A stretch of 64,000 bases of DNA, from assembly GCA_964057225.1 (NCBI GenBank), contig OZ059894.1, forward strand, positions 124,001 through 188,000, read 5' to 3'. The notes under the pieces were generated by a model. That model was not told the origin of the DNA, did no database searches, and saw nothing but the letters and a program-made list of their open reading frames with translations. Shown here in pieces: positions 1-11,873 of the stretch (within the stretch, counting starts at the first letter, position 1; each line of letters begins with the position of its first letter). The stretch is from Auanema rhodensis. Taxonomy: Eukaryota > Animalia > Nematoda. The position numbers were made by a program, and so were the translations under genes.

Positions 1-404
1 ACCGCATCTCTTTATCTTTTACGTGAAGCGAGTTACATACCAAGTGCACATCACGTGTACATTTAATTAGCATAAATTAAAGTTCACGTAAATTTCAAAG
101 TCATGGTTACCATGAACCAATATCAATAAAAATTTGTTTTTAGACTAATATGGACATGGGGAATCTAATTTTGAAAACCGCATCTCTTTATCTTTTACGT
201 GAAGCGAGTTACATACCAAGTGCACATCACGTGTACATTTAATTAGCATAAATTAAAGTTCACGTAAATTTCAAAGTCATGGTTACCATGAACCAATATC
301 AAAAAAAATTTGTTTTTAGACTAATATGGACATGGGGAATCTGATTTTGAAAACCGCATCTCTTTATCTTTCACGTGAAGCGAGTTACATACCAAGTGCA
401 CATC
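1..404. repeat. 176-bp tandem satellite, left flank (about 2.3 monomers)
   Basis: ACCGCATCTC recurs at 1, 177 and 353 (period 176). Same monomer as 11870-64000. The third monomer stops at ...AAGTGCACATC and resumes in register at 11870. Confidence 0.99.
401..404. repeat. 4-bp target-site duplication CATC, left copy
   Basis: Intact monomer reads GTGCACATCACGTG. Left junction is GTGCA-CATC|CGTTCC and right junction is GGAACG|CATC-ACGTG. Confidence 0.95.
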
Positions 405-741
405 CGTTCCGTTATGCTCTCACGTCGATCCTATAGACCAATAAAGCCTACAAGATGAGTGTGATAGTATTCCAGATGTAGCGGTAGATAAAGAGCATAA
501 TGGATAAACATAAGACTCGAGAAAGAAAAGTTTATTATGTCTACATGATTACAATAAGTTATATAAGTCTACATAAAGATATAAAGTGAAAGAGAGCTAA
601 GAAAGGAAGACCAACCATCCATAGTCATTCCATAAGGCAAAGCAGAAGTCTGTGTTCCATATGAAGGGCGTGTCGTCCTCTCTCAGCCTCATGTCGTCTG
701 ATTCTAACCCGCCTGCTACGTATTGATTTCCGAATGGAACG
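405..741 (-). repeat. 3' LTR (337 bp)
   Basis: Direct repeat of 11533-11869 with no difference found by eye. Plus-strand ends are CGTTCCGTT...AATGGAACG (8/9 inverted repeat). Confidence 0.97.
531..536 (-). terminator. Candidate polyadenylation signal AATAAA in the 3' LTR (equivalent site 11659-11664 in the 5' LTR)
   Basis: Plus-strand TTTATT reads AATAAA on the element sense strand. Use of this site is not demonstrated. Confidence 0.5.
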
Positions 742-753
742 TGCCATTTTTTC
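742..753 (-). other. Probable (atypical, A-rich) polypurine tract
   Basis: Sense strand GAAAAAATGGCA directly abuts the 3' LTR; 10 of 12 bases are purines and the position is where a PPT is expected. Confidence 0.5.
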
Positions 754-1438
754 GAGTTTATGTCGCGTCCTCGCGAATAGCAAAATATGTGGCTTGTTTC
801 AATCGTAGCAGAAGGTTTAGTTTTAAAAAATAAAAATTACAATGTTAACATAAAAATAGTAAAGATAAATTACAATATAGTGTTAAACAATATTATCTGA
901 AAATAACTTAATAAAAATTATTTGAAAATACGTGAATATTAAGGAATAAAACAATCTTTTAGAATACCAGGGCTATATTTTGTCAGCGAGAGTGCGCAAA
1001 ATAGCTTTTTAGGCACGACGCTGCATGTCTAACTTGTTTGAGTATAGAGAAACGAGAGTCATGCTATATTATCGATGGAGCTAGCATGTTTCTTCAGCGT
1101 ATTCAAAGCGAATTGTAATAATAAAAAAAAATTAAATTAAATCCCATATAATTTCCGGAATTGAATCATTAACTACTTGATAAGAACTGTTGCTCAGATG
1201 AATATGCAATATAATGTCTCTTATCTTTCATTTCTTCTTTATTTACGGGAAATTATTTGAAATTGATGAAGTTTTATAATCATATATGCTTTGAAACTGA
1301 AATGCTTTTTGATTATTAGCTTACATCTCGTCTTACTCAAGTTTTTCAATGATATAATAATATTAATAGCTCTGGTTTTTTAAAAGAGTGTTGATACAAA
1401 GTTTTACAATAATTTTATCAATCTCGAAATTATTTCTT

Positions 1439-4400
1439 TCATCGTCTTCTTCTTGGTGGTAGCCAATTTTGGTCCGATGGGTCTTCTGGTTCTGTTTCTT
1501 CACTAGAGTCATAGTTATCGTTACCATTTATGACTTTTATGATCTCAATATCGCTGTCGTCGTCCGTGTCATAAGTCGTTGTATTTGATCGCGTGTTTTG
1601 AGCGATTGTATGCTTCATTTTGCGTTCAAAAAGTTTGAGATTGTCTTTGTGTACGTCTTGAATTTTTCCAAATGGATTCTTGAGTTGTACCATGTTTCCT
1701 TCAACGTTGATGACTTCAAATGGTCCATCATATGATTTGCGAAGCTTTTGACCTGGTTTATGCGCTTTAATTGCTAACATAACTTGGTCTCCTTTTCGGA
1801 TATCTCTTTCTTCTATTCGTTGTCGTCCATCATGTTTTCTCTTCGCGGTTTCTTGATGTTTTGCAAGATTTTCTTGAATGATGGTTCTTCTTTCTCCTCT
1901 GATATATTCGGTATTCTCAATTTCTTCCAAGATCTCTGGTTGTAATGTCTCGGGGAATAATTCTTTGTCTAATCTCATACGACTTTCTTTTCCGAATAAT
2001 GCTATGTATGGAGAGATTCCTGTGGTTGCGTGTGTTATTGTATTTAACGCAAAAGTAATTTTTGGTAAATACATGTCCCAATCAGTTACGTCTTCGTTCA
2101 GATAGTGTGTTAATCCTTCTTCTAGCGTTCTGTGTAGTCTTTCGACTTGTCCATTAGAATTTTTCTGATGAGGGAGTGTTGGCTCGTGTTTAATGCCAAG
2201 TTGTTCACACATTTCTTCAAATTTCTTTGATACAAAATTAGATCCACGATCGGTTATTAAACGATTTGGTGGTCCAAAAATATATACGAAATTCCTGAGG
2301 AATCTATCAATGATGACATCGGTGACAATTGTTGGTATAGCGATGGTTGTCGCCCATTTGGAGAATGAATCTTGTATTGTTAGGACATAATTGTTGTTTC
2401 TTTTTGAAGTAGGGAATGGTCCCATAATATCCATATGTATTCTCTCAAATGGTTTTGATGGTATTTCAAATTGACCCATAGGCTGAACGGTCATAGCGTG
2501 AGGATCTTTCTTCCTTTGTGCGCATTTAACGCATTGTTTCACAAAAATTGCTATGTCCGTTTGCATATTTGTCCAGCAGAATCTTCGTAGTATGGCTTCT
2601 TTAGTTTTGTTAATTCCTTGATGTGCTCCAATTGCTGGGTCTTCGTGAAATTCTTCGATAACCTTGTTGATAAGTTCGCTTTCCCTTGGTAAAATCAAAG
2701 CTGGGTGTGGTCGTTTTCTGCTTGGTTTTGTGTATAACATGTTGTCAATAACACAATAACGATCATTAGAAAGCATGTTCTTTTTCGCTCTGTATTCTAT
2801 TTCGGCGATAGTTCTCTTTATCCAAGGTGTATCCTCTTGAATTGCTCTAATGTCAGGTACATTAACGAAATTAATTTGAGCTTTCGGAATTTCTTTTGTT
2901 TTCTTTTTCTTTTCCGGTTTAGGATCGTTTGCTTCATCTCCAATGTATCGTGAGAGAGCATCACAGACTTTGTTTAGTCTGCCTTCTCGGTATCTTATCT
3001 CGATATCGTATTCCTGTATGACTAATTGAAATTTTGCTAGTCTTCCAAAAAGGTCTCTACGAGTCAATAAGCTTGTTAATGGTCGATGGTCTGTGATACA
3101 GATTGTATGTGATCCAAGTATATATGTTCGAAACTGAGCTAAAGCGTATACGAGTCCTAACGCTTCTATTTCAATAGGAGCATAGTTGCGTTCCGCTTTT
3201 ACAAGTTTACGGCTTGCAAATGCAATTGGATGTAAATTTTTGAGTGGTTCATTGGGATCTTCAGGTTGTAATAACACTGCTCCCACTGCGATATTACTAC
3301 CGTCACTTTCTATAATGAACATACGGTCTGATCTTGGTGGTTTTAAGACCGGTGCTTGGATCAATTTTCTTTTTAGTGTATCAACAGCTTGTTGACTTTT
3401 GTCATTCCATTGAAATTCCACATCAAGTTTTGTAAGGTCGTATAAAGGGCTTGCGATGTGTGCAAAATCCTTAATAAATTTCCGAAAGAATCCTACCATT
3501 CCCAAAAATGCTCTTACTCCTGTAGGTGACTTTGGAGCAGGATAGTCTTGAATGGCGGATACTTTCTGTGGATCTGGTTTGACCCCATCTCTTCCGACAA
3601 TTAAACCAAGAAATTTTACTTCAGGTCTTGCAAAAGCGCATTTCTTGAGTTTTATTTTCATGCCTAATTTCTTTACTTCTCTGAGAATCTCAGCTATATC
3701 GTCAAGATGTTGTTCTGCAGTGTCTGATATAACGAGTAAATCATCCAAATAAACAAAGAGTCGGCATTTACATCGGCTTTGAAGGTATCGTACTGCTGTT
3801 TGAAAGGTATGTGGCGCTCCACATAACCCCATAGGCATCCTTCTATATTGATAAGTACCGGTGTTTGTTGTAAATGCTGTTAATGGTCGATCTGATTTCT
3901 TTAATGCTATTTGGAAGAATCCGGATACTAAATCAAAGTTAGAAAAATATTGTGATCCGGCTGCCATATCGACAATGTCAGAGATGTTAGGTATGATGTA
4001 CGTTTGCTTGCGAGTGACGTTATTTAGAGCACGGAAATCGGTTACGAAACGGAATGTTTCATCTTTCTTTTTGACTAAAACTACAGGACTATTGAAAAGA
4101 GATGTGGATGGTTCAATTATATTTTGCTTCAGCATCTCCTGTACCTGTCTTTCGACTTCTTCTTGTTTGCCTATAGGGATACGCGTTATACGCGGTCTAG
4201 GCATGTCCATATCTGTTCTTAGAGGTATTGAATGCTCTACAGGTCCTTTAAATAGTCCTATTTGTTTATCCTCATTTAAAAATGCATCTCTATTACGTAG
4301 AATACAAAGCTGAAGAAGATCTTTTTGTTCTTTAGTTAGGTCGGCGTCTTTTAAATCAAGATCGTTCATAAAGTCCTGAGGAAAATGAGGTAATTTATTT

Positions 4401-7400
4401 TCCCAATCCGCTTCGGGTGGTATATAGTCTGGATTGTGTTCGGTCGTAAAGATCTCGTATTGTGGCAGTACGCCTATTTTTGCTTTGTCAATAATGTTTC
4501 CGGGTGATAGATCAATAGGATGATCAGTGTTGTTTTTGAATGTCATGGTAATTGAATTGACGTCTCGAAATGCTGTTTCGTAGGTGGTAGATATCGTCTT
4601 TTCTTCATCGGGTTGTAGCACGGCGACTTCGTTGTGTGATATGGGTTCAGCTAACCTTACTGGTATTCTACAGGTCTGGTGAGGAAAGATACATTGTGGA
4701 CTTAAATTTATCAAATTAATGACAAATGATGTTTTTCTGATATTCCCGTTATTTCCATTGGCTAACGGTACTACGCGGTCTCCGATTTCTAACGTTTGTT
4801 TGAATGGTCGAAGTTTCATACCGATATTTTGACGATCGAGTGTTTTCATAAAATCTAATCCAATTAATGCTGGTGATGGACAGTCTTCATCTCTTGAAAT
4901 GAAGAATGTATGATCTATTTCATATCCAGCGATTTCTACGGTTAAATCAATTGTTCCCAGAAATCGAAATGCTGATCCGTTTGCTGTCGTTGCAACTGAT
5001 TTATCCTTTTTTACAAAATCATTCAAAGTTAAGTAATGTAATGTCGAGAGTCTGATATAACTAATCGATGATCCTGAATCCCAAAGAGTTAGGATTAGTC
5101 TATCGTTAACAGTCATCAATAGCAGTGGTAGAGTTTGGTCTTTGCGATTGGAAACTGAACAAACTATGGGCATAGCTAGTGGAACTAAAGTGAGAAACGA
5201 TGGATAGTACTGTTTCATTATGTTCCTTGGTATTGGCTGATCAGGTTGACTTACTAGCTCTAATGTTTCTTCATATGTGGGAAGATCGTTGGTTTGATCT
5301 CGGAGTTCGATATGCATGACTTGCATGCCTATTGGTTTGAAGAAATATATTTTCGCAACAAAGGCTAGTACGATCAGTATAACTACAATAATTGTAATTG
5401 CTCCAATAGTGATGAGTGTTCGTTCAATCGTTCCTGCTATTGTATCGACAAAAGAATTCCATGTACTTTTGGTGAATTCATTGGCTTTGGAGATGTAATC
5501 ACTACTTTTCTTCAATATGCTGAATGCTGATGATATTTTTGGATCATGATGAATTGTGTGAAGCACGTGATTTTGACGAATCGATGCTAAACTAGCACCA
5601 TAAGCAATGGCTGTTGTCATTGAGTACACTCGAGATGATAAGTTGGTGTATAAGTGTGCTCCGGTGAATTTTAATGGCGTGATCTTTTCATGATGAAGTC
5701 CGTCCCACATGGATATGAGACTGACGTCTACAGTACCATTAATTCCTTTCCATTCACCGTCTGTTGACCATACGTCTGTTGGTACGTGATCACAGTTAAT
5801 TTCTTTACCATGAGGTAATAGGTCTTTCGATCCTGGTGCGGCAAACAGTAATTGTCCTTCTTGTGTTAATACTGGGGTTTCGAGATAACATGTGCCATTC
5901 ACAGTGTGATTGTGATATATAGTCTTTTGTAATACTACCGGGCAAACATGTATATGTAATATCTCGCTGCCTACAAATCTTGCGGCTATATCTTCTCTTC
6001 CCAGTATTGTACGCATAGCTATTGTTGGTTCAATTTGTAAAATTGATCTCCATAATTCAAGATACCTATTTTGGATCTCACATATTGATTCGTATGACTC
6101 TTTAAAATGTTTCTGCAGTTCTTCTTGAATCATAGTTGTAGCATATTGCAAATGATCTTGTGCAATTCTGCTTGTTATGTTTTGGCGAAACTGTTGTTCG
6201 GAGTCAATTTTTGTGGCAATGTATTGAGCATTAGCCTGTACAGACTCTATATCGGTGGCTGTAGGTGTTGATGATGCTCTATGTTTACGAATCAAGGATA
6301 TTGGTGTATATGTTGTTTCTTCCATTATTGGGATTTGTTGATCTTGATAAACAGCGTAGAGAATAGTAGTTGGCGGCGCGCGGGTCGATATTGTTGCGCG
6401 CGCGGTTGTCGTTGCGGTTGTATGGCGCGCCGTTGTTTCGGGCTGGGCCATCGATGAAGGCGCGCGCGCGGTAGTTGCTGCGGCTGCCCGAGGGCTTGTA
6501 GATGTTTGCGGCAGTATTGCGGAATCTGTTGTGATCAGCGCCTCACGATCGATTATAGGGAGGGCTGCCATCTCGGCCGCGCCGCCTGCCGCGTTGCTTG
6601 GCGCACGCGTCGTGATTTGCAACGATTTAAGTTGGATTTTCTCTGTCATTAATCTTTTTAACTGTTCTGATGATATTCTACTAGATGTATTAGGCAAAAT
6701 ATTATCGTTTAGTAGTGGTAAAAATATTTCCAATAATAAGTCCTTAGAGATGTTGTTGGGCTCTTTGAGCTTGGGATGTGGTCCAATTGGTATTCCAAAA
6801 TTATTCTTGATGTCATAGAACAATTTATCAGTATCAAGTACAAACATTCGTGAAGATGGAATGTTTATAAATTTTATGTCATCGATATCAGCTGCTGTTT
6901 TATTTCTTCTAAGCGTAACGAGAGTTTTTAGCTCATGTACAAGGTCAATTGTATCTTTTATAAATTTGCTGTTTCTTTCTTCTTGATCAGTTAATAATTG
7001 TTTCCTTATTGGTGGCATTTTTACGAATGTTTTTAATATTTCTTGTCTTGATGGAACTGTTAATTTGTCTTCAATTATAACTGGTGTATTGGCTAAATCA
7101 AGAGCGATAGTTTCAGCACGCTCTCGATAAGTGCCTTCTTTTGTACGAATTAACTGATCAAATTCAATAACGGTCAAACGATCTGATATTTGTTGAAGAA
7201 GTTGCCTGGATGTTAAATAAGATATTCCAGCTTTAGTAGCTAAAGCTAATTCTCTTTGAGCAACATATTGTAAAATGGCTTCGTCTTTATCACGGAAATC
7301 ATATTGTTTGAGAAAATGTCTTAAAGATTTCTCATAAATTTGAATTTTAAAGAAAAATTCAAAATTTTCGCGATGGGCTATTATCCATTCTTTTAACGAA

Positions 7401-10123
7401 TATGTAGGGTCTACCATACGTCTTCCTTTAATTAGAGGAATAATTTGTGTAATTCCTGGATTACTCATAAGTGGTCTTAAAAATGGATATGGGCAAATTC
7501 GAAGCGTGTACGTTTCAAAATCTTCAACTTCATTTATTCTATCCTGATCGAATGGGAATGAGCATTTTGTAGAAGTTGCGCGTTTAAGTCTTTTGAACGG
7601 CAATTTCTTAAATTCTCGTTCAATTAGGAGTGTGATATTGTTATCATTAGGATATTTGGGGAATGTTATATAATTTCCTGATGTTGTGTGGAATGCTGGT
7701 TGTCTAAAGCAGGATGCAATTGGTTTTGGTGTTAGTTTACTTGAAAGGATAAGCGCTGATTGTGTACTTGGAATCAAAATAGTTTCTTTGCTTATTATGG
7801 CATCGTAGTAATGCATATCGATATAATTACAACGGGAATCCGATGTTTGGGGATCCCATATAATTATTGATGTATTTGATTTGCAATTACCATGATGAGC
7901 ACTACAACCTTCAGTGTTTAGTATTAAATTGGATAATATTGTATCATCGGGCATGCGGGTCATGACTCCGCGCTCTAGTACTAAACGCGGCCGCTCCTCG
8001 CACTCGTCGCGGCTAAACGCGCGCGCCGGATCATAGGAGGGCTCTGGGGTTGCTTGTGCTATACTATCGATTCTCTCCAGCTCCATGTTATTCCATTTGC
8101 GATCGCGAATCGCCTGCCTGCACTCGTGCGCCGCTATAGGCTGCACCCTATCGATTGTTCTGTTTGTGTCGCGGAGGAATAACAAATCGCGTACACACAG
8201 CTTGTGTACTTCCTTCGAGCAGCGCCACGCGTCCCACTCGTGTGCCGTGTGGTTTCGCGTGTATAGATGGATTTGTGTACGTAGCACATGATTTGTTTCT
8301 GTTAATTTACATTTCTTTACTACTGGCGGAACTAATAAGGCTCCTCCAGTTGCTTTTGTGCAAATTTGATATGAAGTTACACATGGCAGGAAAATTGCTA
8401 CTGTGATTGCCATTACAACCGTTAGTGATAACGGTGAAAGGGTCACAGAGTTAATTCGTGGTGTGCTTCTATCTCGTCCTCTTGATTGATCTCTTTGATT
8501 GTTAAAATGGACTCTTCTTTGTCCGTTATGTTCATTAGTCCTTCCTCTTCTACTATTGTTTGAAGGATTAAAATTGTTTGAATGCCAGTTGTTATTAAAT
8601 CGTCCCGAATTTCGTTCATAATTATTGTTACGGCGATAATTAGCAAAAGAGCCGTTACGATTTTGGTTGTTATTATATTTTGAAAAGTTTTTATTTTTCT
8701 GATAATTTTGATAATTATGATAATTTTTATTGTTTTGGTTATCACGTGGATAATTACGGTCGAAATTTCGGTTATCTCGTCTCTCGTTTGTGCGCGCGAA
8801 AGGAGCTAGTGCTTTGTTTACAGCATTGACTAGCATGGACTGCGTGTCTGTTGTCTGGTTCATTATCGATTCTTCCCAGCGAGCGGCCTCAATCGCATCC
8901 GTGAAGGATTTTGGCTTCGCTCGAATCACAGCTGGTTTCAGAGTATTTTTTAGTCCTCTGAGGAAAGTTGATCTTAATATGTGATCTTTGTGAGGGTCAT
9001 CCGTGGCAAAAGCGCTTAGTGCAATCGTTCTCAGTGATTGAGCGTAAGCGTCAATTGTCAGATCCCCTTGGGTTGTATTTTGGAGATTGATCAGCGCGGG
9101 GTCCTGATTATATTCAGGACAAAGCTTAGATGTTAAAGCTCTTAACAGGTCATTCCATGAACCGGTGGTTTTTAATTGTTCAGGTACTTGCCTGTACGCT
9201 TCTTCCGCTGCTTCGTTTTTAAGAAGCAAAGGTAGAAGGGCTAATCTCTCCGGGATTACCAGACCTACAGCGTTGGCAAATAGGTTGAATTTAGCCGTGA
9301 AATCTCGAAAGTTGCGACTGCCATCATAAGTTGGGCAGTAGGGTGATAACAAGGCTTGCGCTATGCTAGTTTTCCCTGCCCCAGGTAAAGAAGGTTCAGT
9401 TGCCATATTACTTGTACGGGCAGATGGCATTTTTATCACTCTGCCTGTTGTTAATGAGTTCTCAGACACAGGGGTTGTGTGTACTGAGCGGCTGGGTTGG
9501 TTTGGTGCTTTTGAACTTCCTGTTGTTGTATTTGGTAAAATTGGGGTTGAAGTTTGGTTATCAGTAATAGCAAGATGTGTATGTTCGGGTGGTTGTATGG
9601 GAGATAAATTAATGTTTGGAACCGACGAGTATCTATTCGTGTGGCTGGTGTTCAAGTTTCGATCTTTTGGTGAACGATTGAAGAGATCAGAAACTATGTT
9701 TTTAAAAGTTTGTAAACCGCCTGCACTAGTAGTGGCTACTGAAGGTGAAACTGTTGGTTCAGGGATGGACAGAGAGAGAGATGCGTCCGATTTGCTTGAG
9801 TTTTTATTTTTATTTTTCTTATTTTTATTTGAATTAGAGGAGCGTACCTTTTTAGCAGTAACTGGTGTTTGTTCTTCCACTATGACGGATGTTTCTTCTC
9901 CTCCTGGTGGTACGTAATCCTCGTCGCTTAATCGTTCAGTAGGTGAATAAGTGCCTGCACGAGGAGTAAAGAATTTGTCGGTTTTGTGCTCGACTTTCTG
10001 CTCGTCTTCGATTATAGCGATGCTCTGCGCGCGAGCTCGGCTTCTGGTGAGTGGAGCTGAGTCTCGCAGATCAAAATCAGTTCGTGTACTGAGAGGTACA
10101 GCTGATCGGAATCGTTTATCCAC
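1439..10123 (-). CDS. Single Gag-Env-Pol polyprotein (2894 aa from GTG 10123; first in-frame ATG at 9430; frame open from 10186)
   Basis: Uninterrupted ORF with a capsid-like region, Asn/Arg-rich region, signal peptide, glycoprotein ectodomain, TM, aspartic protease, RT, RNase H and integrase. The true start codon is uncertain. Confidence 0.95.
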   Translation of the reverse strand: MDKRFRSAVPLSTRTDFDLRDSAPLTRSRARAQSIAIIEDEQKVEHKTDKFFTPRAGTYSPTERLSDEDYVPPGGEETSVIVEEQTPVTAKKVRSSNSNKNKKNKNKNSSKSDASLSLSIPEPTVSPSVATTSAGGLQTFKNIVSDLFNRSPKDRNLNTSHTNRYSSVPNINLSPIQPPEHTHLAITDNQTSTPILPNTTTGSSKAPNQPSRSVHTTPVSENSLTTGRVIKMPSARTSNMATEPSLPGAGKTSIAQALLSPYCPTYDGSRNFRDFTAKFNLFANAVGLVIPERLALLPLLLKNEAAEEAYRQVPEQLKTTGSWNDLLRALTSKLCPEYNQDPALINLQNTTQGDLTIDAYAQSLRTIALSAFATDDPHKDHILRSTFLRGLKNTLKPAVIRAKPKSFTDAIEAARWEESIMNQTTDTQSMLVNAVNKALAPFARTNERRDNRNFDRNYPRDNQNNKNYHNYQNYQKNKNFSKYNNNQNRNGSFANYRRNNNYERNSGRFNNNWHSNNFNPSNNSRRGRTNEHNGQRRVHFNNQRDQSRGRDRSTPRINSVTLSPLSLTVVMAITVAIFLPCVTSYQICTKATGGALLVPPVVKKCKLTETNHVLRTQIHLYTRNHTAHEWDAWRCSKEVHKLCVRDLLFLRDTNRTIDRVQPIAAHECRQAIRDRKWNNMELERIDSIAQATPEPSYDPARAFSRDECEERPRLVLERGVMTRMPDDTILSNLILNTEGCSAHHGNCKSNTSIIIWDPQTSDSRCNYIDMHYYDAIISKETILIPSTQSALILSSKLTPKPIASCFRQPAFHTTSGNYITFPKYPNDNNITLLIEREFKKLPFKRLKRATSTKCSFPFDQDRINEVEDFETYTLRICPYPFLRPLMSNPGITQIIPLIKGRRMVDPTYSLKEWIIAHRENFEFFFKIQIYEKSLRHFLKQYDFRDKDEAILQYVAQRELALATKAGISYLTSRQLLQQISDRLTVIEFDQLIRTKEGTYRERAETIALDLANTPVIIEDKLTVPSRQEILKTFVKMPPIRKQLLTDQEERNSKFIKDTIDLVHELKTLVTLRRNKTAADIDDIKFINIPSSRMFVLDTDKLFYDIKNNFGIPIGPHPKLKEPNNISKDLLLEIFLPLLNDNILPNTSSRISSEQLKRLMTEKIQLKSLQITTRAPSNAAGGAAEMAALPIIDREALITTDSAILPQTSTSPRAAAATTARAPSSMAQPETTARHTTATTTARATISTRAPPTTILYAVYQDQQIPIMEETTYTPISLIRKHRASSTPTATDIESVQANAQYIATKIDSEQQFRQNITSRIAQDHLQYATTMIQEELQKHFKESYESICEIQNRYLELWRSILQIEPTIAMRTILGREDIAARFVGSEILHIHVCPVVLQKTIYHNHTVNGTCYLETPVLTQEGQLLFAAPGSKDLLPHGKEINCDHVPTDVWSTDGEWKGINGTVDVSLISMWDGLHHEKITPLKFTGAHLYTNLSSRVYSMTTAIAYGASLASIRQNHVLHTIHHDPKISSAFSILKKSSDYISKANEFTKSTWNSFVDTIAGTIERTLITIGAITIIVVILIVLAFVAKIYFFKPIGMQVMHIELRDQTNDLPTYEETLELVSQPDQPIPRNIMKQYYPSFLTLVPLAMPIVCSVSNRKDQTLPLLLMTVNDRLILTLWDSGSSISYIRLSTLHYLTLNDFVKKDKSVATTANGSAFRFLGTIDLTVEIAGYEIDHTFFISRDEDCPSPALIGLDFMKTLDRQNIGMKLRPFKQTLEIGDRVVPLANGNNGNIRKTSFVINLINLSPQCIFPHQTCRIPVRLAEPISHNEVAVLQPDEEKTISTTYETAFRDVNSITMTFKNNTDHPIDLSPGNIIDKAKIGVLPQYEIFTTEHNPDYIPPEADWENKLPHFPQDFMNDLDLKDADLTKEQKDLLQLCILRNRDAFLNEDKQIGLFKGPVEHSIPLRTDMDMPRPRITRIPIGKQEEVERQVQEMLKQNIIEPSTSLFNSPVVLVKKKDETFRFVTDFRALNNVTRKQTYIIPNISDIVDMAAGSQYFSNFDLVSGFFQIALKKSDRPLTAFTTNTGTYQYRRMPMGLCGAPHTFQTAVRYLQSRCKCRLFVYLDDLLVISDTAEQHLDDIAEILREVKKLGMKIKLKKCAFARPEVKFLGLIVGRDGVKPDPQKVSAIQDYPAPKSPTGVRAFLGMVGFFRKFIKDFAHIASPLYDLTKLDVEFQWNDKSQQAVDTLKRKLIQAPVLKPPRSDRMFIIESDGSNIAVGAVLLQPEDPNEPLKNLHPIAFASRKLVKAERNYAPIEIEALGLVYALAQFRTYILGSHTICITDHRPLTSLLTRRDLFGRLAKFQLVIQEYDIEIRYREGRLNKVCDALSRYIGDEANDPKPEKKKKTKEIPKAQINFVNVPDIRAIQEDTPWIKRTIAEIEYRAKKNMLSNDRYCVIDNMLYTKPSRKRPHPALILPRESELINKVIEEFHEDPAIGAHQGINKTKEAILRRFCWTNMQTDIAIFVKQCVKCAQRKKDPHAMTVQPMGQFEIPSKPFERIHMDIMGPFPTSKRNNNYVLTIQDSFSKWATTIAIPTIVTDVIIDRFLRNFVYIFGPPNRLITDRGSNFVSKKFEEMCEQLGIKHEPTLPHQKNSNGQVERLHRTLEEGLTHYLNEDVTDWDMYLPKITFALNTITHATTGISPYIALFGKESRMRLDKELFPETLQPEILEEIENTEYIRGERRTIIQENLAKHQETAKRKHDGRQRIEERDIRKGDQVMLAIKAHKPGQKLRKSYDGPFEVINVEGNMVQLKNPFGKIQDVHKDNLKLFERKMKHTIAQNTRSNTTTYDTDDDSDIEIIKVINGNDNYDSSEETEPEDPSDQNWLPPRRRR
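1600..2700 (-). other. Integrase domain (HHCC zinc finger, DDE core, GPF/Y module); no chromodomain; boundaries approximate
   Basis: FHEDPAIGAHQG...CVKC; HMDIMGP, ITDRGSNF, NGQVERLHRTL; KLRKSYDGPFEV. Confidence 0.93.
2950..3325 (-). other. RNase H domain (Ty3/gypsy type); boundaries approximate
   Basis: FIIESDGSNIAVGAVLLQ, ERNYAPIEIEALGL, TDHRPL, NKVCDALSR. Confidence 0.93.
3580..4240 (-). other. Reverse transcriptase domain; boundaries approximate
   Basis: SPVVLVKKKDETFRFVTDFRALN, FDLVSGFFQI, MPMGLCGAP, YLDD at 3751-3740, KCAF, VKFLG. Confidence 0.97.
4770..5130 (-). other. Retropepsin-type aspartic protease; boundaries approximate
   Basis: LWDSGSSISYI (DSG at 5080-5072), flap-like TANG, ALIGLDFM. 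Confidence 0.92.
5340..8446 (-). other. Envelope-like type I membrane glycoprotein embedded in the polyprotein, probably a class III (gB / chuvirus G-like) fusogen
   Basis: Hydrophobic signal-like stretch VTLSPLSLTVVMAITVAIFLPCVTS|YQIC (8446-8372). Cys-rich ectodomain with at least 12 N-x-S/T sequons. Furin-type sites RLKR (7591-7580) and RKHR (6289-6278). TM LITIGAITIIVVILIVLAFVA (about 5416-5354). The pattern C..Q...EP..A....G.....C...CY..P...F....C recalls gB-like domains III/IV; this is recognition, not a search result. Confidence 0.8.
8456..9340 (-). other. Gag: capsid-like domain (about 9340-8860) followed by an Asn/Arg-rich nucleocapsid substitute (about 8795-8456)
   Basis: PTYDGSRNFRDF...QGDLTIDAYAQSLR...TFLRGL...PKSFTDAIEAARWEE resembles Ty3/gypsy capsid with a major-homology-like segment. 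No CCHC knuckle is present. Confidence 0.8.
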
Positions 10124-11519
10124 TTTGGTAGCGCTCTTGGTTTGGAAAAACCTTGAGTGTTTAGTAACGTGGGGGATTTTGAGACGTTAATGAGTGTTAT
10201 GGATAAGGAGTTTTGGAAAAGGGGTGAGAAAGCTGTGAGTAACTGGTTTGTATAGTCGGCGTTAAGGAATGAATCTAAGTTGTGGCCATCAACAGAGATC
10301 CGCCTACTACCGTATGAAAATTTGGACTTTGTTCGCTTTCCAATTTAATATTCTTAAATGTATATAATTCAACCAGTTTGTATATGTTCAAAAATGTTCA
10401 GTGCTCACTTGATTGATGCCTGAGCAATCTCATTAGTCCTTATTCCCACTTTTTTTTCTTTTTTCTGACGATTCTGATCTTCTTGGACTCACGAGTGATC
10501 GAAAATGCCACGAAAATGGACTTTGGTAAATGTTCAAAGGATTTTAGCGGTTTTCATAATGTACATTCGTAATAGCATTACTCTTTAAGGAAGCAATTTG
10601 GAAAACGAATGAGTACCGTAGTCCCATCATGATCAGAAATCTAGTTTTAAAATTATGGCTAGGAATAGATGACTAAAGATTACAATAACTATATTTAAAG
10701 AATTATGGTGTTTAGGAATGAGTCTTATGCTTCAAAACAACAATAACGGTATGAGGAAGGTGACATATAGTAAGGGGAGAAAATCCAAACTGATATGCTT
10801 AAGCCAACACGACCTGATAGACAATCACTAATAATAATTCAGTTCGTAAAATTGTACAGGATTTTTCGGACTATAGCGATCTTAAAATTCACTTTTCATA
10901 ATATTCCTCCCATTTAGGTGAGGTTTCCCGTGTAACTTCAATGCGTTATCAAAATATTTTTGGATGTTAATGGCAAAAAGTTGTCTGAACAGAAATGTAA
11001 CGCAAAATAAAATAGTCCTGATCGCAAAATATGAAATAATCTCAATTTGGTGCGCAAAATTGTTTCATCCACAAAAATAAAGAAATAACCGTGGCTATTC
11101 TTTCCTCGAAGCCAAAATCAATCCTTAAAAGGAGAAAGTGTGGGCATAAATCTCAATAAAAATTATCCTTGGGTGAATTTGTTCACTAATTCATCCTAGG
11201 GTCCTCAAAAATGCTTCGAGTTCGGGTAACAGAGTATTTGATGTTAACAGCAAGGATATAAAAATTGTTGGGTTCAGACAGACAGAAAATTGTGAACAAA
11301 CGGGAGAATATAACTTCAGTTTCAAAAAATATAAAATCCATCTCCAAAAGGAGTGGTCCTTGCATCTGTTCCCTTTTAAACGTTGTTGGCCCCACCGTAT
11401 TGTGTTGAGACATGGAGTAGATGGTTTAGAGATATAAGAGAATTCAGATTCAATGAATTGTAGTAAAAATAACGAAATATAAGAGAAAATAGTCAAGAAA
11501 TCAAGATAAAAATGTTCGA

Positions 11520-11532
11520 GGTGGAACCTCCA
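11520..11532 (-). promoter_or_regulatory. Primer-binding site complementary to the 3' end of tRNA-Gln
   Basis: Sense TGGAGGTTCCACC immediately follows the 5' LTR. Metazoan tRNA-Gln ends ...GGUGGAACCU-CCA, giving a 13-nt match. Confidence 0.85.
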
Positions 11533-11869
11533 CGTTCCGTTATGCTCTCACGTCGATCCTATAGACCAATAAAGCCTACAAGATGAGTGTGATAGTATTC
11601 CAGATGTAGCGGTAGATAAAGAGCATAATGGATAAACATAAGACTCGAGAAAGAAAAGTTTATTATGTCTACATGATTACAATAAGTTATATAAGTCTAC
11701 ATAAAGATATAAAGTGAAAGAGAGCTAAGAAAGGAAGACCAACCATCCATAGTCATTCCATAAGGCAAAGCAGAAGTCTGTGTTCCATATGAAGGGCGTG
11801 TCGTCCTCTCTCAGCCTCATGTCGTCTGATTCTAACCCGCCTGCTACGTATTGATTTCCGAATGGAACG
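11533..11869 (-). repeat. 5' LTR (337 bp)
   Basis: Matches 405-741 (offset 11128) and is adjacent to the PBS. Confidence 0.97.
11687..11694 (-). promoter_or_regulatory. Candidate TATA box TTATATAA in the 5' LTR
   Basis: Palindromic TTATATAA about 25 nt upstream of AATAAA on the sense strand. Motif evidence only. Confidence 0.4.
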
Positions 11870-11873
11870 CATC
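11870..11873. repeat. 4-bp target-site duplication CATC, right copy
   Basis: GGAACG|CATCACGTGTAC; the satellite resumes in register. Confidence 0.95.

What the first reader, a model, noticed from the sequence alone, without database searches (positions are those of the whole stretch)
6278..7591. About 430-aa extra domain bracketed by two furin-type sites inside Env, ending in a mucin-like tract
Seen: KRLKR (aa about 844-848) and RKHR (aa 1279-1282) flank a Cys-poor, apparently helical domain plus a Thr/Ala/Pro-rich stretch (TTARAPSS...TTATTTARATISTRAPPTT). Established: gB has its furin loop just before the central helix, and RSV F releases an internal peptide by double furin cleavage. Inference: a large excisable passenger (receptor-binding subunit, glycan shield or secreted effector) is inserted in the cleavage loop. 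I recognise no family for it.
Basis: partly seen in the sequence, partly recalled or inferred. Interest (0 to 1): 0.7.

Follow-up and report, generated by a model that had tools for sequence, protein, structure and literature searches.

The report
Unknown domain inside retrotransposon fusion protein
A young jumping gene, likely of a roundworm, carries a herpesvirus-like membrane-fusion protein whose cleavage loop holds an extra 320-residue domain with a predicted helical fold that matched no known structure, sitting on a flexible stalk that is predicted to be sugar-coated and likely acting as an attachment or capping head.

Summary
In detail: RLKR and RKHR flank a 434-residue block in the gB-type Env of an intact GAG-ENV-POL Ty3/gypsy element. 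That element class is published (PMC13524379), and this scan noted the layout before on other DNA (e1-8581169). The block lies in the gB loop before the central helix. Its first 321 residues give a confident all-helical model (pLDDT 79, pTM 0.80) with no Pfam or fold match; the rest is a disordered Ser/Thr/Ala/Pro stalk. It is a family trait, not a one-off: 33 of 91 relatives have loops of 100+ residues, homologous head domains recur, and a nested subgroup lacks it. 'Excised passenger' is only half supported. Site 1 is strict R-x-K/R-R in 9 of 9 relatives covering it. Site 2 is strict in 0 of 12 and missing in 4, though the seven closest sequences keep an Arg there. Best reading: cleavage at site 1 leaves the head tethered by the stalk to the membrane-anchored subunit as an accessory attachment or cap domain; site 2 allows shedding at most conditionally. 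Cleavage, binding and function are untested. New variant of a known kind.

The parts
11533..11869 (-). 5' LTR (337 bp, ends CG...CG)
   Evidence: 337/337 identical to the 3' LTR; sequence
11521..11532 (-). Primer-binding site, tRNA-Gln type
   Evidence: Abuts the 5' LTR; same 12-mer as the Gln_UUG_CUG site listed for two Caenorhabditis errantiviruses in PMC13524379 suppl. file 1
1439..10186 (-). Single open frame Gag-Env-protease-RT-RNaseH-integrase, 2915 codons stop to stop (first ATG at 9430)
8372..8440 (-). Internal hydrophobic segment, predicted signal peptide of Env (aa 583-605)
   Evidence: hydropathy scan; cleavage point inferred
7592..8371 (-). Env N-terminal core (gB-like domains I/II), aa 606-865
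   Evidence: 10 of its Cys conserved in relatives; high-confidence beta-rich model; fold match to herpesvirus gB
7580..7591 (-). Site 1, RLKR (aa 866-869), strict furin-type motif
   Evidence: strict in 9 of 9 group members that cover it; low pLDDT loop
6617..7579 (-). Inserted 'head' domain, aa 870-1190, predicted all-alpha, no family or fold match
   Evidence: homologues
7214..7360 (-). Most widely shared module of the head (aa about 943-991; two helices ending in the A-I-L-x-x-x-x-x-x-E pattern)
   Evidence: shared with short-head relatives (hhalign probability 96) and more weakly with a second group (probability 54, E 1e-4)
6290..6616 (-). Disordered stalk, aa 1191-1299, with the Ser/Thr/Ala/Pro tract at 6365-6529
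   Evidence: composition; pLDDT under 50 over model residues 592-706; O-glycosylation not tested
6278..6289 (-). Site 2, RKHR (aa 1300-1303), minimal R-x-x-R only
   Evidence: degenerate or absent in relatives
5327..6277 (-). Env C-terminal subunit: central helix, domains III-V, transmembrane helix (about 5351-5419)
   Evidence: Pfam Monjiviricetes_fusion E 1e-14 and Glycoprotein_B E 1e-9; PDB gB sequence hits; helix 709-784 in the model
405..741 (-). 3' LTR; CATC target-site duplication at 401-404 and 11870-11873 in a 176-bp satellite
   Evidence: empty-site joint 400-11870

Best explanation
This is an accessory, independently folding head domain (predicted all-helical) inserted with a Ser/Thr-rich stalk into the cleavage loop of a gB-type Env, and it likely stays tethered to the membrane-anchored half after a host furin-like protease cuts site 1, likely serving as an attachment or capping domain on the particle surface. 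Shown: position in the loop, separate predicted fold, family-wide occurrence with length variation, conservation of site 1, degeneracy of site 2, absence in a nested subgroup. Inferred: the internal signal peptide puts the ectodomain in the secretory pathway; site 1 is cut; the two core halves stay joined by the gB-type disulfides while the head, having no Cys shared with the core, hangs on the stalk at the new N-terminus of the transmembrane subunit; the weak site 2 lets this subgroup shed the head in a second, conditional step; the head binds a host surface molecule or holds the prefusion form until it is displaced.
For: Core without the insert is a full gB-like fold (Foldseek E 5e-11; VIA Z 12.6, rmsd 7.5, 431 aligned against HSV gB 110-722). 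Head alone folds at pLDDT 79, pTM 0.80 from 15 sequences; in the whole ectodomain both parts stay confident but pTM is 0.44 and the two junctions are under pLDDT 50, as expected for separate bodies on flexible links. Site 1 strict in 9 of 9 covering sequences; site 2 strict in 0 of 12, absent in 4 of 12; second group absent in 8 of 10. P0007, P0011 and P0024 have the head joined to the central helix with no basic motif between. Head is under constraint: 93/220 identical to the Auanema relative in its first part, against 150/252 and 148/235 in the core and 21/89 in the stalk. Short-loop P0010, P0013, P0017 nest among head-bearing Envs (FastTree 0.93; SH-aLRT 96), so the head is dispensable for the core. 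All 14 core Cys lie outside the insert.
Against: No receptor, ligand or fold relative was found, so 'attachment' rests on anatomy and analogy alone. The seven closest sequences all keep an Arg at site 2, that position matches the single strict site of short-loop relatives (4 of 4), and minimal R-x-x-R sites are used in nematode collagens (RTTR in SQT-3; PMC10538796, passages), so full excision may be the rule in this subgroup. The tree is a quick IQ-TREE run and the AU test did not finish. Several relatives are fragments. No expression of Env protein or cleavage was seen.
Confidence: 0.55

Rival explanations
1. Double cleavage releases the whole block as a soluble passenger (secreted effector, decoy or pro-piece).
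For: Both motifs lie in predicted disordered stretches; no Cys of the block is shared with the core; Arg at site 2 kept in 7 of 7 closest sequences, followed mostly by small residues; site 2 sits where short-loop relatives have their strict site; nematode convertase substrates include R-x-x-R; CCHFV releases GP38 from beside a mucin-like domain by two convertase cuts (PMC8310232, passage).
Against: Site 2 is never strict (0 of 12) and reads VERR or SNKR in four close sequences; absent in P0007, P0008, P0011, P0024 and in 8 of 10 of the second group; two R-x-x-R arise in 92% of shuffles. A stalk makes more sense for a tethered domain (inference).
Confidence: 0.25
2. The block is mainly a steric or glycan shield or a tolerated spacer, with no specific partner.
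For: Loop length runs from 11 to 505 residues and several unrelated sequence types fill it; the distal half varies fastest (7 of 12 listed differences among genomic copies change the residue); three N-glycan sequons and the S/T tract.
Against: A compact predicted fold of pTM 0.80 with a module kept across Envs only 25-30% identical; diverged families in the same genomes keep it at the same length.
Confidence: 0.12
3. The head is an intramolecular chaperone or clamp that helps the Env fold, trimerise or stay prefusion inside the secretory pathway and has no role outside the cell.
For: It sits just upstream of the central helix that refolds during fusion; herpesvirus gB needs partner proteins for control whereas this element has one glycoprotein only (recalled; one search shows no second glycoprotein).
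Against: Close relatives fold a complete Env frame without it; the monomer model gives it no fixed place on the core (pTM 0.44).
Confidence: 0.08

Closest known systems
Nematode GAG-ENV-POL errantiviruses with HSV/gB-type Env (Chary and Hayashi, eLife 2026, PMC13524379; Sacco et al. 2022, cited there, not seen)
   Same: Gene order, gB-type Env between two hydrophobic segments, tRNA-Gln primer site identical to that of Clat_errantivirus_4 and Ctro_errantivirus_1, multiple copies.
   Different: The sections read describe five conserved domains and say only that the furin site 'is not always conserved'; no inserted domain or mucin stalk is mentioned, and the 15 nematode rows of the supplementary alignment that I saw cover 203-214 residues of domains I-II and stop before the loop.
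Herpesvirus glycoprotein B
   Same: Fold of the core, Cys pattern, central helix; the insert lies upstream of the stretch that aligns with HSV-1 gB 496 and VZV gB 508, where the furin loop lies (recalled).
   Different: gB loops are short and unfolded (recalled); here the loop is 493 residues and holds a folded domain.
RSV F pep27 and CCHFV GP38/mucin-like domain (double convertase cleavage)
   Same: A segment between two basic sites in a viral glycoprotein precursor; in CCHFV a folded domain beside a mucin-like domain.
   Different: Class I or II rather than class III; both cuts are established there (RSV recalled), whereas site 2 here is minimal and not conserved; no sequence or fold similarity found.
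Gammaretroviral SU receptor-binding domain on a proline-rich hinge; Ebola GP glycan cap and mucin-like domain
   Same: Globular head on a low-complexity stalk attached to a fusion machine (gammaretrovirus recalled; Ebola cap removal by cathepsins).
   Different: Analogy of layout only; unrelated folds, and no binding is shown here.

Membership tests
Nematode GAG-ENV-POL errantivirus (Ty3/gypsy) | LTR pair with tRNA primer site | tested here: met
   337/337 identical LTRs, Gln-type site
Nematode GAG-ENV-POL errantivirus (Ty3/gypsy) | Order Gag, Env, protease, RT, RNase H, integrase | tested here: met
   Pfam positions in one frame
Nematode GAG-ENV-POL errantivirus (Ty3/gypsy) | Nematode host | tested here: inconclusive
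Nematode GAG-ENV-POL errantivirus (Ty3/gypsy) | Place in the published Pol tree | not tested
   No RT tree was built with the published elements
Class III (gB-type) fusogen | gB-like fold of the ectodomain core | tested here: met
   Foldseek E 5e-11, VIA Z 12-13 over 300-430 residues
Class III (gB-type) fusogen | Conserved Cys set, signal segment and C-terminal transmembrane helix | tested here: met
Class III (gB-type) fusogen | Trimer and membrane-fusion activity | not testable with these tools
   Only a monomer was modelled
Doubly cleaved precursor with a released internal piece (RSV F type) | Two strict furin motifs flanking the piece | tested here: not met
   Site 2 is R-K-H-R, minimal only
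Doubly cleaved precursor with a released internal piece (RSV F type) | Both sites conserved among relatives that carry the piece | tested here: not met
   Site 1 strict 9 of 9; site 2 strict 0 of 12, none in 4; Arg kept in the 7 closest
Doubly cleaved precursor with a released internal piece (RSV F type) | Demonstrated cleavage and release | not testable with these tools
   Needs protein work
Mucin-like domain | Disordered Ser/Thr/Pro-rich tract | tested here: met
   short (about 55 aa) and Ala-rich
Mucin-like domain | Dense O-glycosylation | not testable with these tools
   No O-glycan predictor or data
Any known family for the head domain (including death-domain-like bundles) | Sequence or fold match above noise | tested here: inconclusive
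   No Pfam hit, no Foldseek hit at E 0.001, best VIA Z 3.7, rmsd 3.4, 63 aligned

The most novel reading that the evidence does not exclude
Nematode retroelements have turned the cleavage loop of a class III fusogen into a modular cargo slot: an ancient helical domain of a new fold, and in other lineages unrelated domains, ride there on a mucin stalk as a built-in receptor-binding subunit that is gained, extended, lost and in this lineage shed by a second cut. It would be a one-gene solution to what herpesviruses do with separate gD and gH/gL proteins.
Probability: 0.3. Interest if true: 0.75.

Novelty: new variant of a known kind. Interest (0 to 1): 0.5.

Why it matters
How env-bearing retrotransposons of invertebrates pick target cells, and how a lone gB-like protein is triggered without partner glycoproteins, are open questions. 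A separable, soluble, confidently modelled domain of no known fold, present in some Envs and naturally missing in close relatives, gives a direct handle: it can be expressed alone, solved and used as a probe on worm tissue. It also shows natural large insertions at the gB cleavage loop.

Tried and rejected
Frame or assembly artefact: rejected; one open frame, contigs of all four DNA runs cover every bin of the Env, and an Auanema relative has a loop of the same 493 residues. Block as part of the fusogen fold: rejected. Unique insertion in this element: rejected. Searches that found nothing for the head: Pfam (fragments), word-based protein search with the head alone and with alignment A2 (only P0001), ESM Atlas (best 0.87, lead only; nothing among named clusters), metagenome contigs, viral contigs (alignment too loose to search), Foldseek on BFVD and PDB, VIA wide (best Z 3.7); a missing match does not prove a new fold. 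PDB profile search with A1 was swamped by Pol. The complex predictor was not available, so head-core contact was not modelled. AU test of the tree did not finish. No RNA holder of the Env region was listed; three runs guessed to be RNA barely cover it, which says nothing on expression. No whole genome is held. Not held and so not read: Sacco et al. 2022, a recalled BoHV-1 paper on proteins placed between duplicated gB furin sites, Oliver et al. 2009. Earlier scan notes by sequence: none.

Full report
Element. The window holds one long frame on the minus strand (1439-10186, 2915 codons) between two identical 337-bp LTRs (405-741, 11533-11869), inserted with a CATC duplication into a 176-bp satellite that fills the rest of the window. 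Pfam places Gag (aa 320-448), a gB/Monjiviricetes-type fusion protein (aa 1343-1605), protease, RT, RNase H and integrase in that order. Hydrophobic segments at aa 583-605 and 1590-1612 bracket the Env ectodomain. This GAG-ENV-POL layout with a gB-type Env is described for nematodes, bryozoans and flatworms in PMC13524379 (abstract, first part of section 5, section 6, sections 18 and 22, term searches and parts of two supplements read), and the primer site equals the tRNA-Gln 12-mer listed there for two Caenorhabditis elements. The two named relatives are from Auanema and C. auriculariae, so a nematode host is likely but not shown.

Observation. The finding's coordinates translate to 438 aa from RLKR to RKHR. 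Site 1 is R-x-K-R; site 2 is only R-x-x-R. Neither motif exceeds chance on its own (one or more strict sites in 38%, two or more minimal sites in 92% of 5000 shuffles). The S/T/P tract does (9 of 2000 shuffles).

Position and fold. The sequence 33 residues after site 2 aligns with the start of the gB central helix (HSV-1 496-586, VZV 508-589). AlphaFold2 of the ectodomain with 64 sequences gives a confident beta-rich N-core (model 1-260), an unfolded stretch at site 1, a confident helical block (311-590), a disordered stretch 592-706 holding the stalk and site 2, and a 76-residue helix; pTM is only 0.44. The model matches herpesvirus gB (Foldseek E 5e-11; VIA Z 12.6, rmsd 7.5, 431 aligned over gB 110-722). 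All 14 core Cys positions lie outside the block, 13 of them conserved in most aligned rows; the block's two Cys are each shared with one other row. The head alone (aa 870-1190, 15 sequences) folds at pLDDT 79, pTM 0.80, almost all helix, and finds no match in BFVD or PDB by Foldseek or among 48,161 chains by VIA (best Z 3.7). Pfam and the Atlas give nothing usable.

Relatives. A phmmer search of 1.84 billion representatives gave 272 hits, of which the best 150 were returned. Of 153 sequences (these, two more, and the window's own), 91 had both core anchors; their loop has a median of 50 residues, 58 are under 100, 33 are 100 or longer, and the window's 493 is second to 505. The set is biased towards near relatives. 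An iterated profile of the block found 14 other proteins: long heads like the window's (P0001, P0008, P0019, P0043 and fragments) and short heads of about 110-130 residues (P0007, P0009, P0011, P0024; P0002 in between); the two forms align with hhalign probability 96. A second group of ten loops (P0012, P0015, P0120 and others) aligns more weakly with the short form (probability 54, E 1e-4, 98 columns), so a shared origin is likely but not secure; two further loop types show no similarity. Most long loops end in an S/T/P-rich tract just before the helix. Against the Auanema protein identity is 60% and 63% in the core halves, 42% in the first part of the head, 27% in its distal part and 24% in the stalk. 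On trees of the core alone (73 rows, FastTree; 27 chosen rows, quick IQ-TREE) three short-loop Envs (69-82 residues) group with the short-head Envs to the exclusion of the window and P0001 (support 0.93; SH-aLRT 96), which points to loss of the head; the AU test did not finish and the root is midpoint only.

Sites. Site 1 is strict in 9 of 9 members of the window's group that cover it, and strict in 5, minimal in 4, dibasic in 1 of the 10 in the second group. In the site 2 zone, of 12 covering members none is strict, 5 have R-x-x-R (one of them inside the head's last helix, probably not the same position), 3 are dibasic, 4 have nothing; P0003 and P0005 are fragments assigned by their core. In the second group 8 of 10 have nothing. 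For the passenger reading: the seven closest sequences all have an Arg at the aligned position (RKHR, RTLR, RVVR, VERR three times, SNKR), the four short-loop relatives checked have their one strict site in this zone, and C. elegans collagens use R-x-x-R sites such as RTTR (PMC10538796, passages).

Copies. Contigs of four DNA runs cover the whole Env. A diverged family spans 6074-8237 with a 2167-base contig in 3 of 4 runs and drops under 80% likeness only in stretches of the block; no listed joint removes the block. Of the 40 best-supported of 526 listed differences, 7 of 15 in the block and 4 of 24 in the core change the residue, all 7 in aa 1100-1280; the one difference inside site 1 changes the variable second position and keeps R-x-K-R. 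This is a selected subset and only suggestive.

Mechanism. Inferred: the internal signal segment threads Env into the secretory pathway, a convertase cuts site 1, the core halves stay linked by gB-type disulfides, and the head becomes the N-terminus of the membrane subunit on a flexible stalk. Relatives without site 2 can only work this way, which makes it the family default. In the window's subgroup a weak site 2 would allow later shedding. A dispensable, faster-evolving, folded head on a stalk is the layout of an attachment or capping domain (analogy: CCHFV GP38 and Ebola cap, PMC8310232 passages; gammaretroviral SU and RSV pep27 recalled). Odds: tethered head 0.55, released passenger 0.25, shield or spacer 0.12, folding clamp 0.08. 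No binding, cleavage or expression of the protein is shown.

Novelty. The element class is known. I found no description of the inserted domain: literature searches returned PMC13524379 as the only paper on these elements, its text has no hit for 'additional domain' and its 'furin' and 'insertion' passages do not concern this, and the nematode rows seen in its alignment stop before the loop. Its figures and Sacco et al. 2022 were not seen and may mention it. Verdict: new variant of a known kind, interest 0.5.

Noticed in passing
window 9848 to 1713, minus strand: Contigs from runs guessed to be RNA join about 9852 to about 1717 or 1592; the sequence offers a GT donor after 9848 and an AG acceptor before 1713. 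This suggests a spliced transcript that skips gag-env-pol, reminiscent of the spliced cerv mRNA of Cer1 (PMC10309623, passages). The downstream piece would be read out of the Pol frame.
   Followed up: partly
window 405-741 and 11533-11869: LTRs are 100% identical and end CG...CG instead of the usual TG...CA (recalled); 4-bp target duplication CATC.
   Followed up: partly
window 9431-10186: The long frame is open for 252 codons upstream of its first ATG, so a non-AUG start or a spliced leader exon may be used; a 184-aa antisense ORF lies at 9363-9917 (+).
   Followed up: no
window 1-404 and 11870-64000: Highly homogeneous 176-bp tandem satellite (copies shown 97-100% identical), possibly centromeric or heterochromatic; the element is a fresh insertion in it, and the empty site is seen in sequencing runs.
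   Followed up: no
window 10187-11520: Long (about 1.3 kb) leader between the primer site and the start of the open frame, covered by contigs of the runs guessed to be RNA.
   Followed up: no
P0020, P0045, P0051, P0071; P0139, P0143, P0148: Other gB-type Envs carry different, unrelated domains in the same loop (one type with Cys and aromatic residues, one coiled-coil-like); P0028, P0045 and P0064 have two strict furin motifs around their loop and are better candidates for true double excision.
   Followed up: partly
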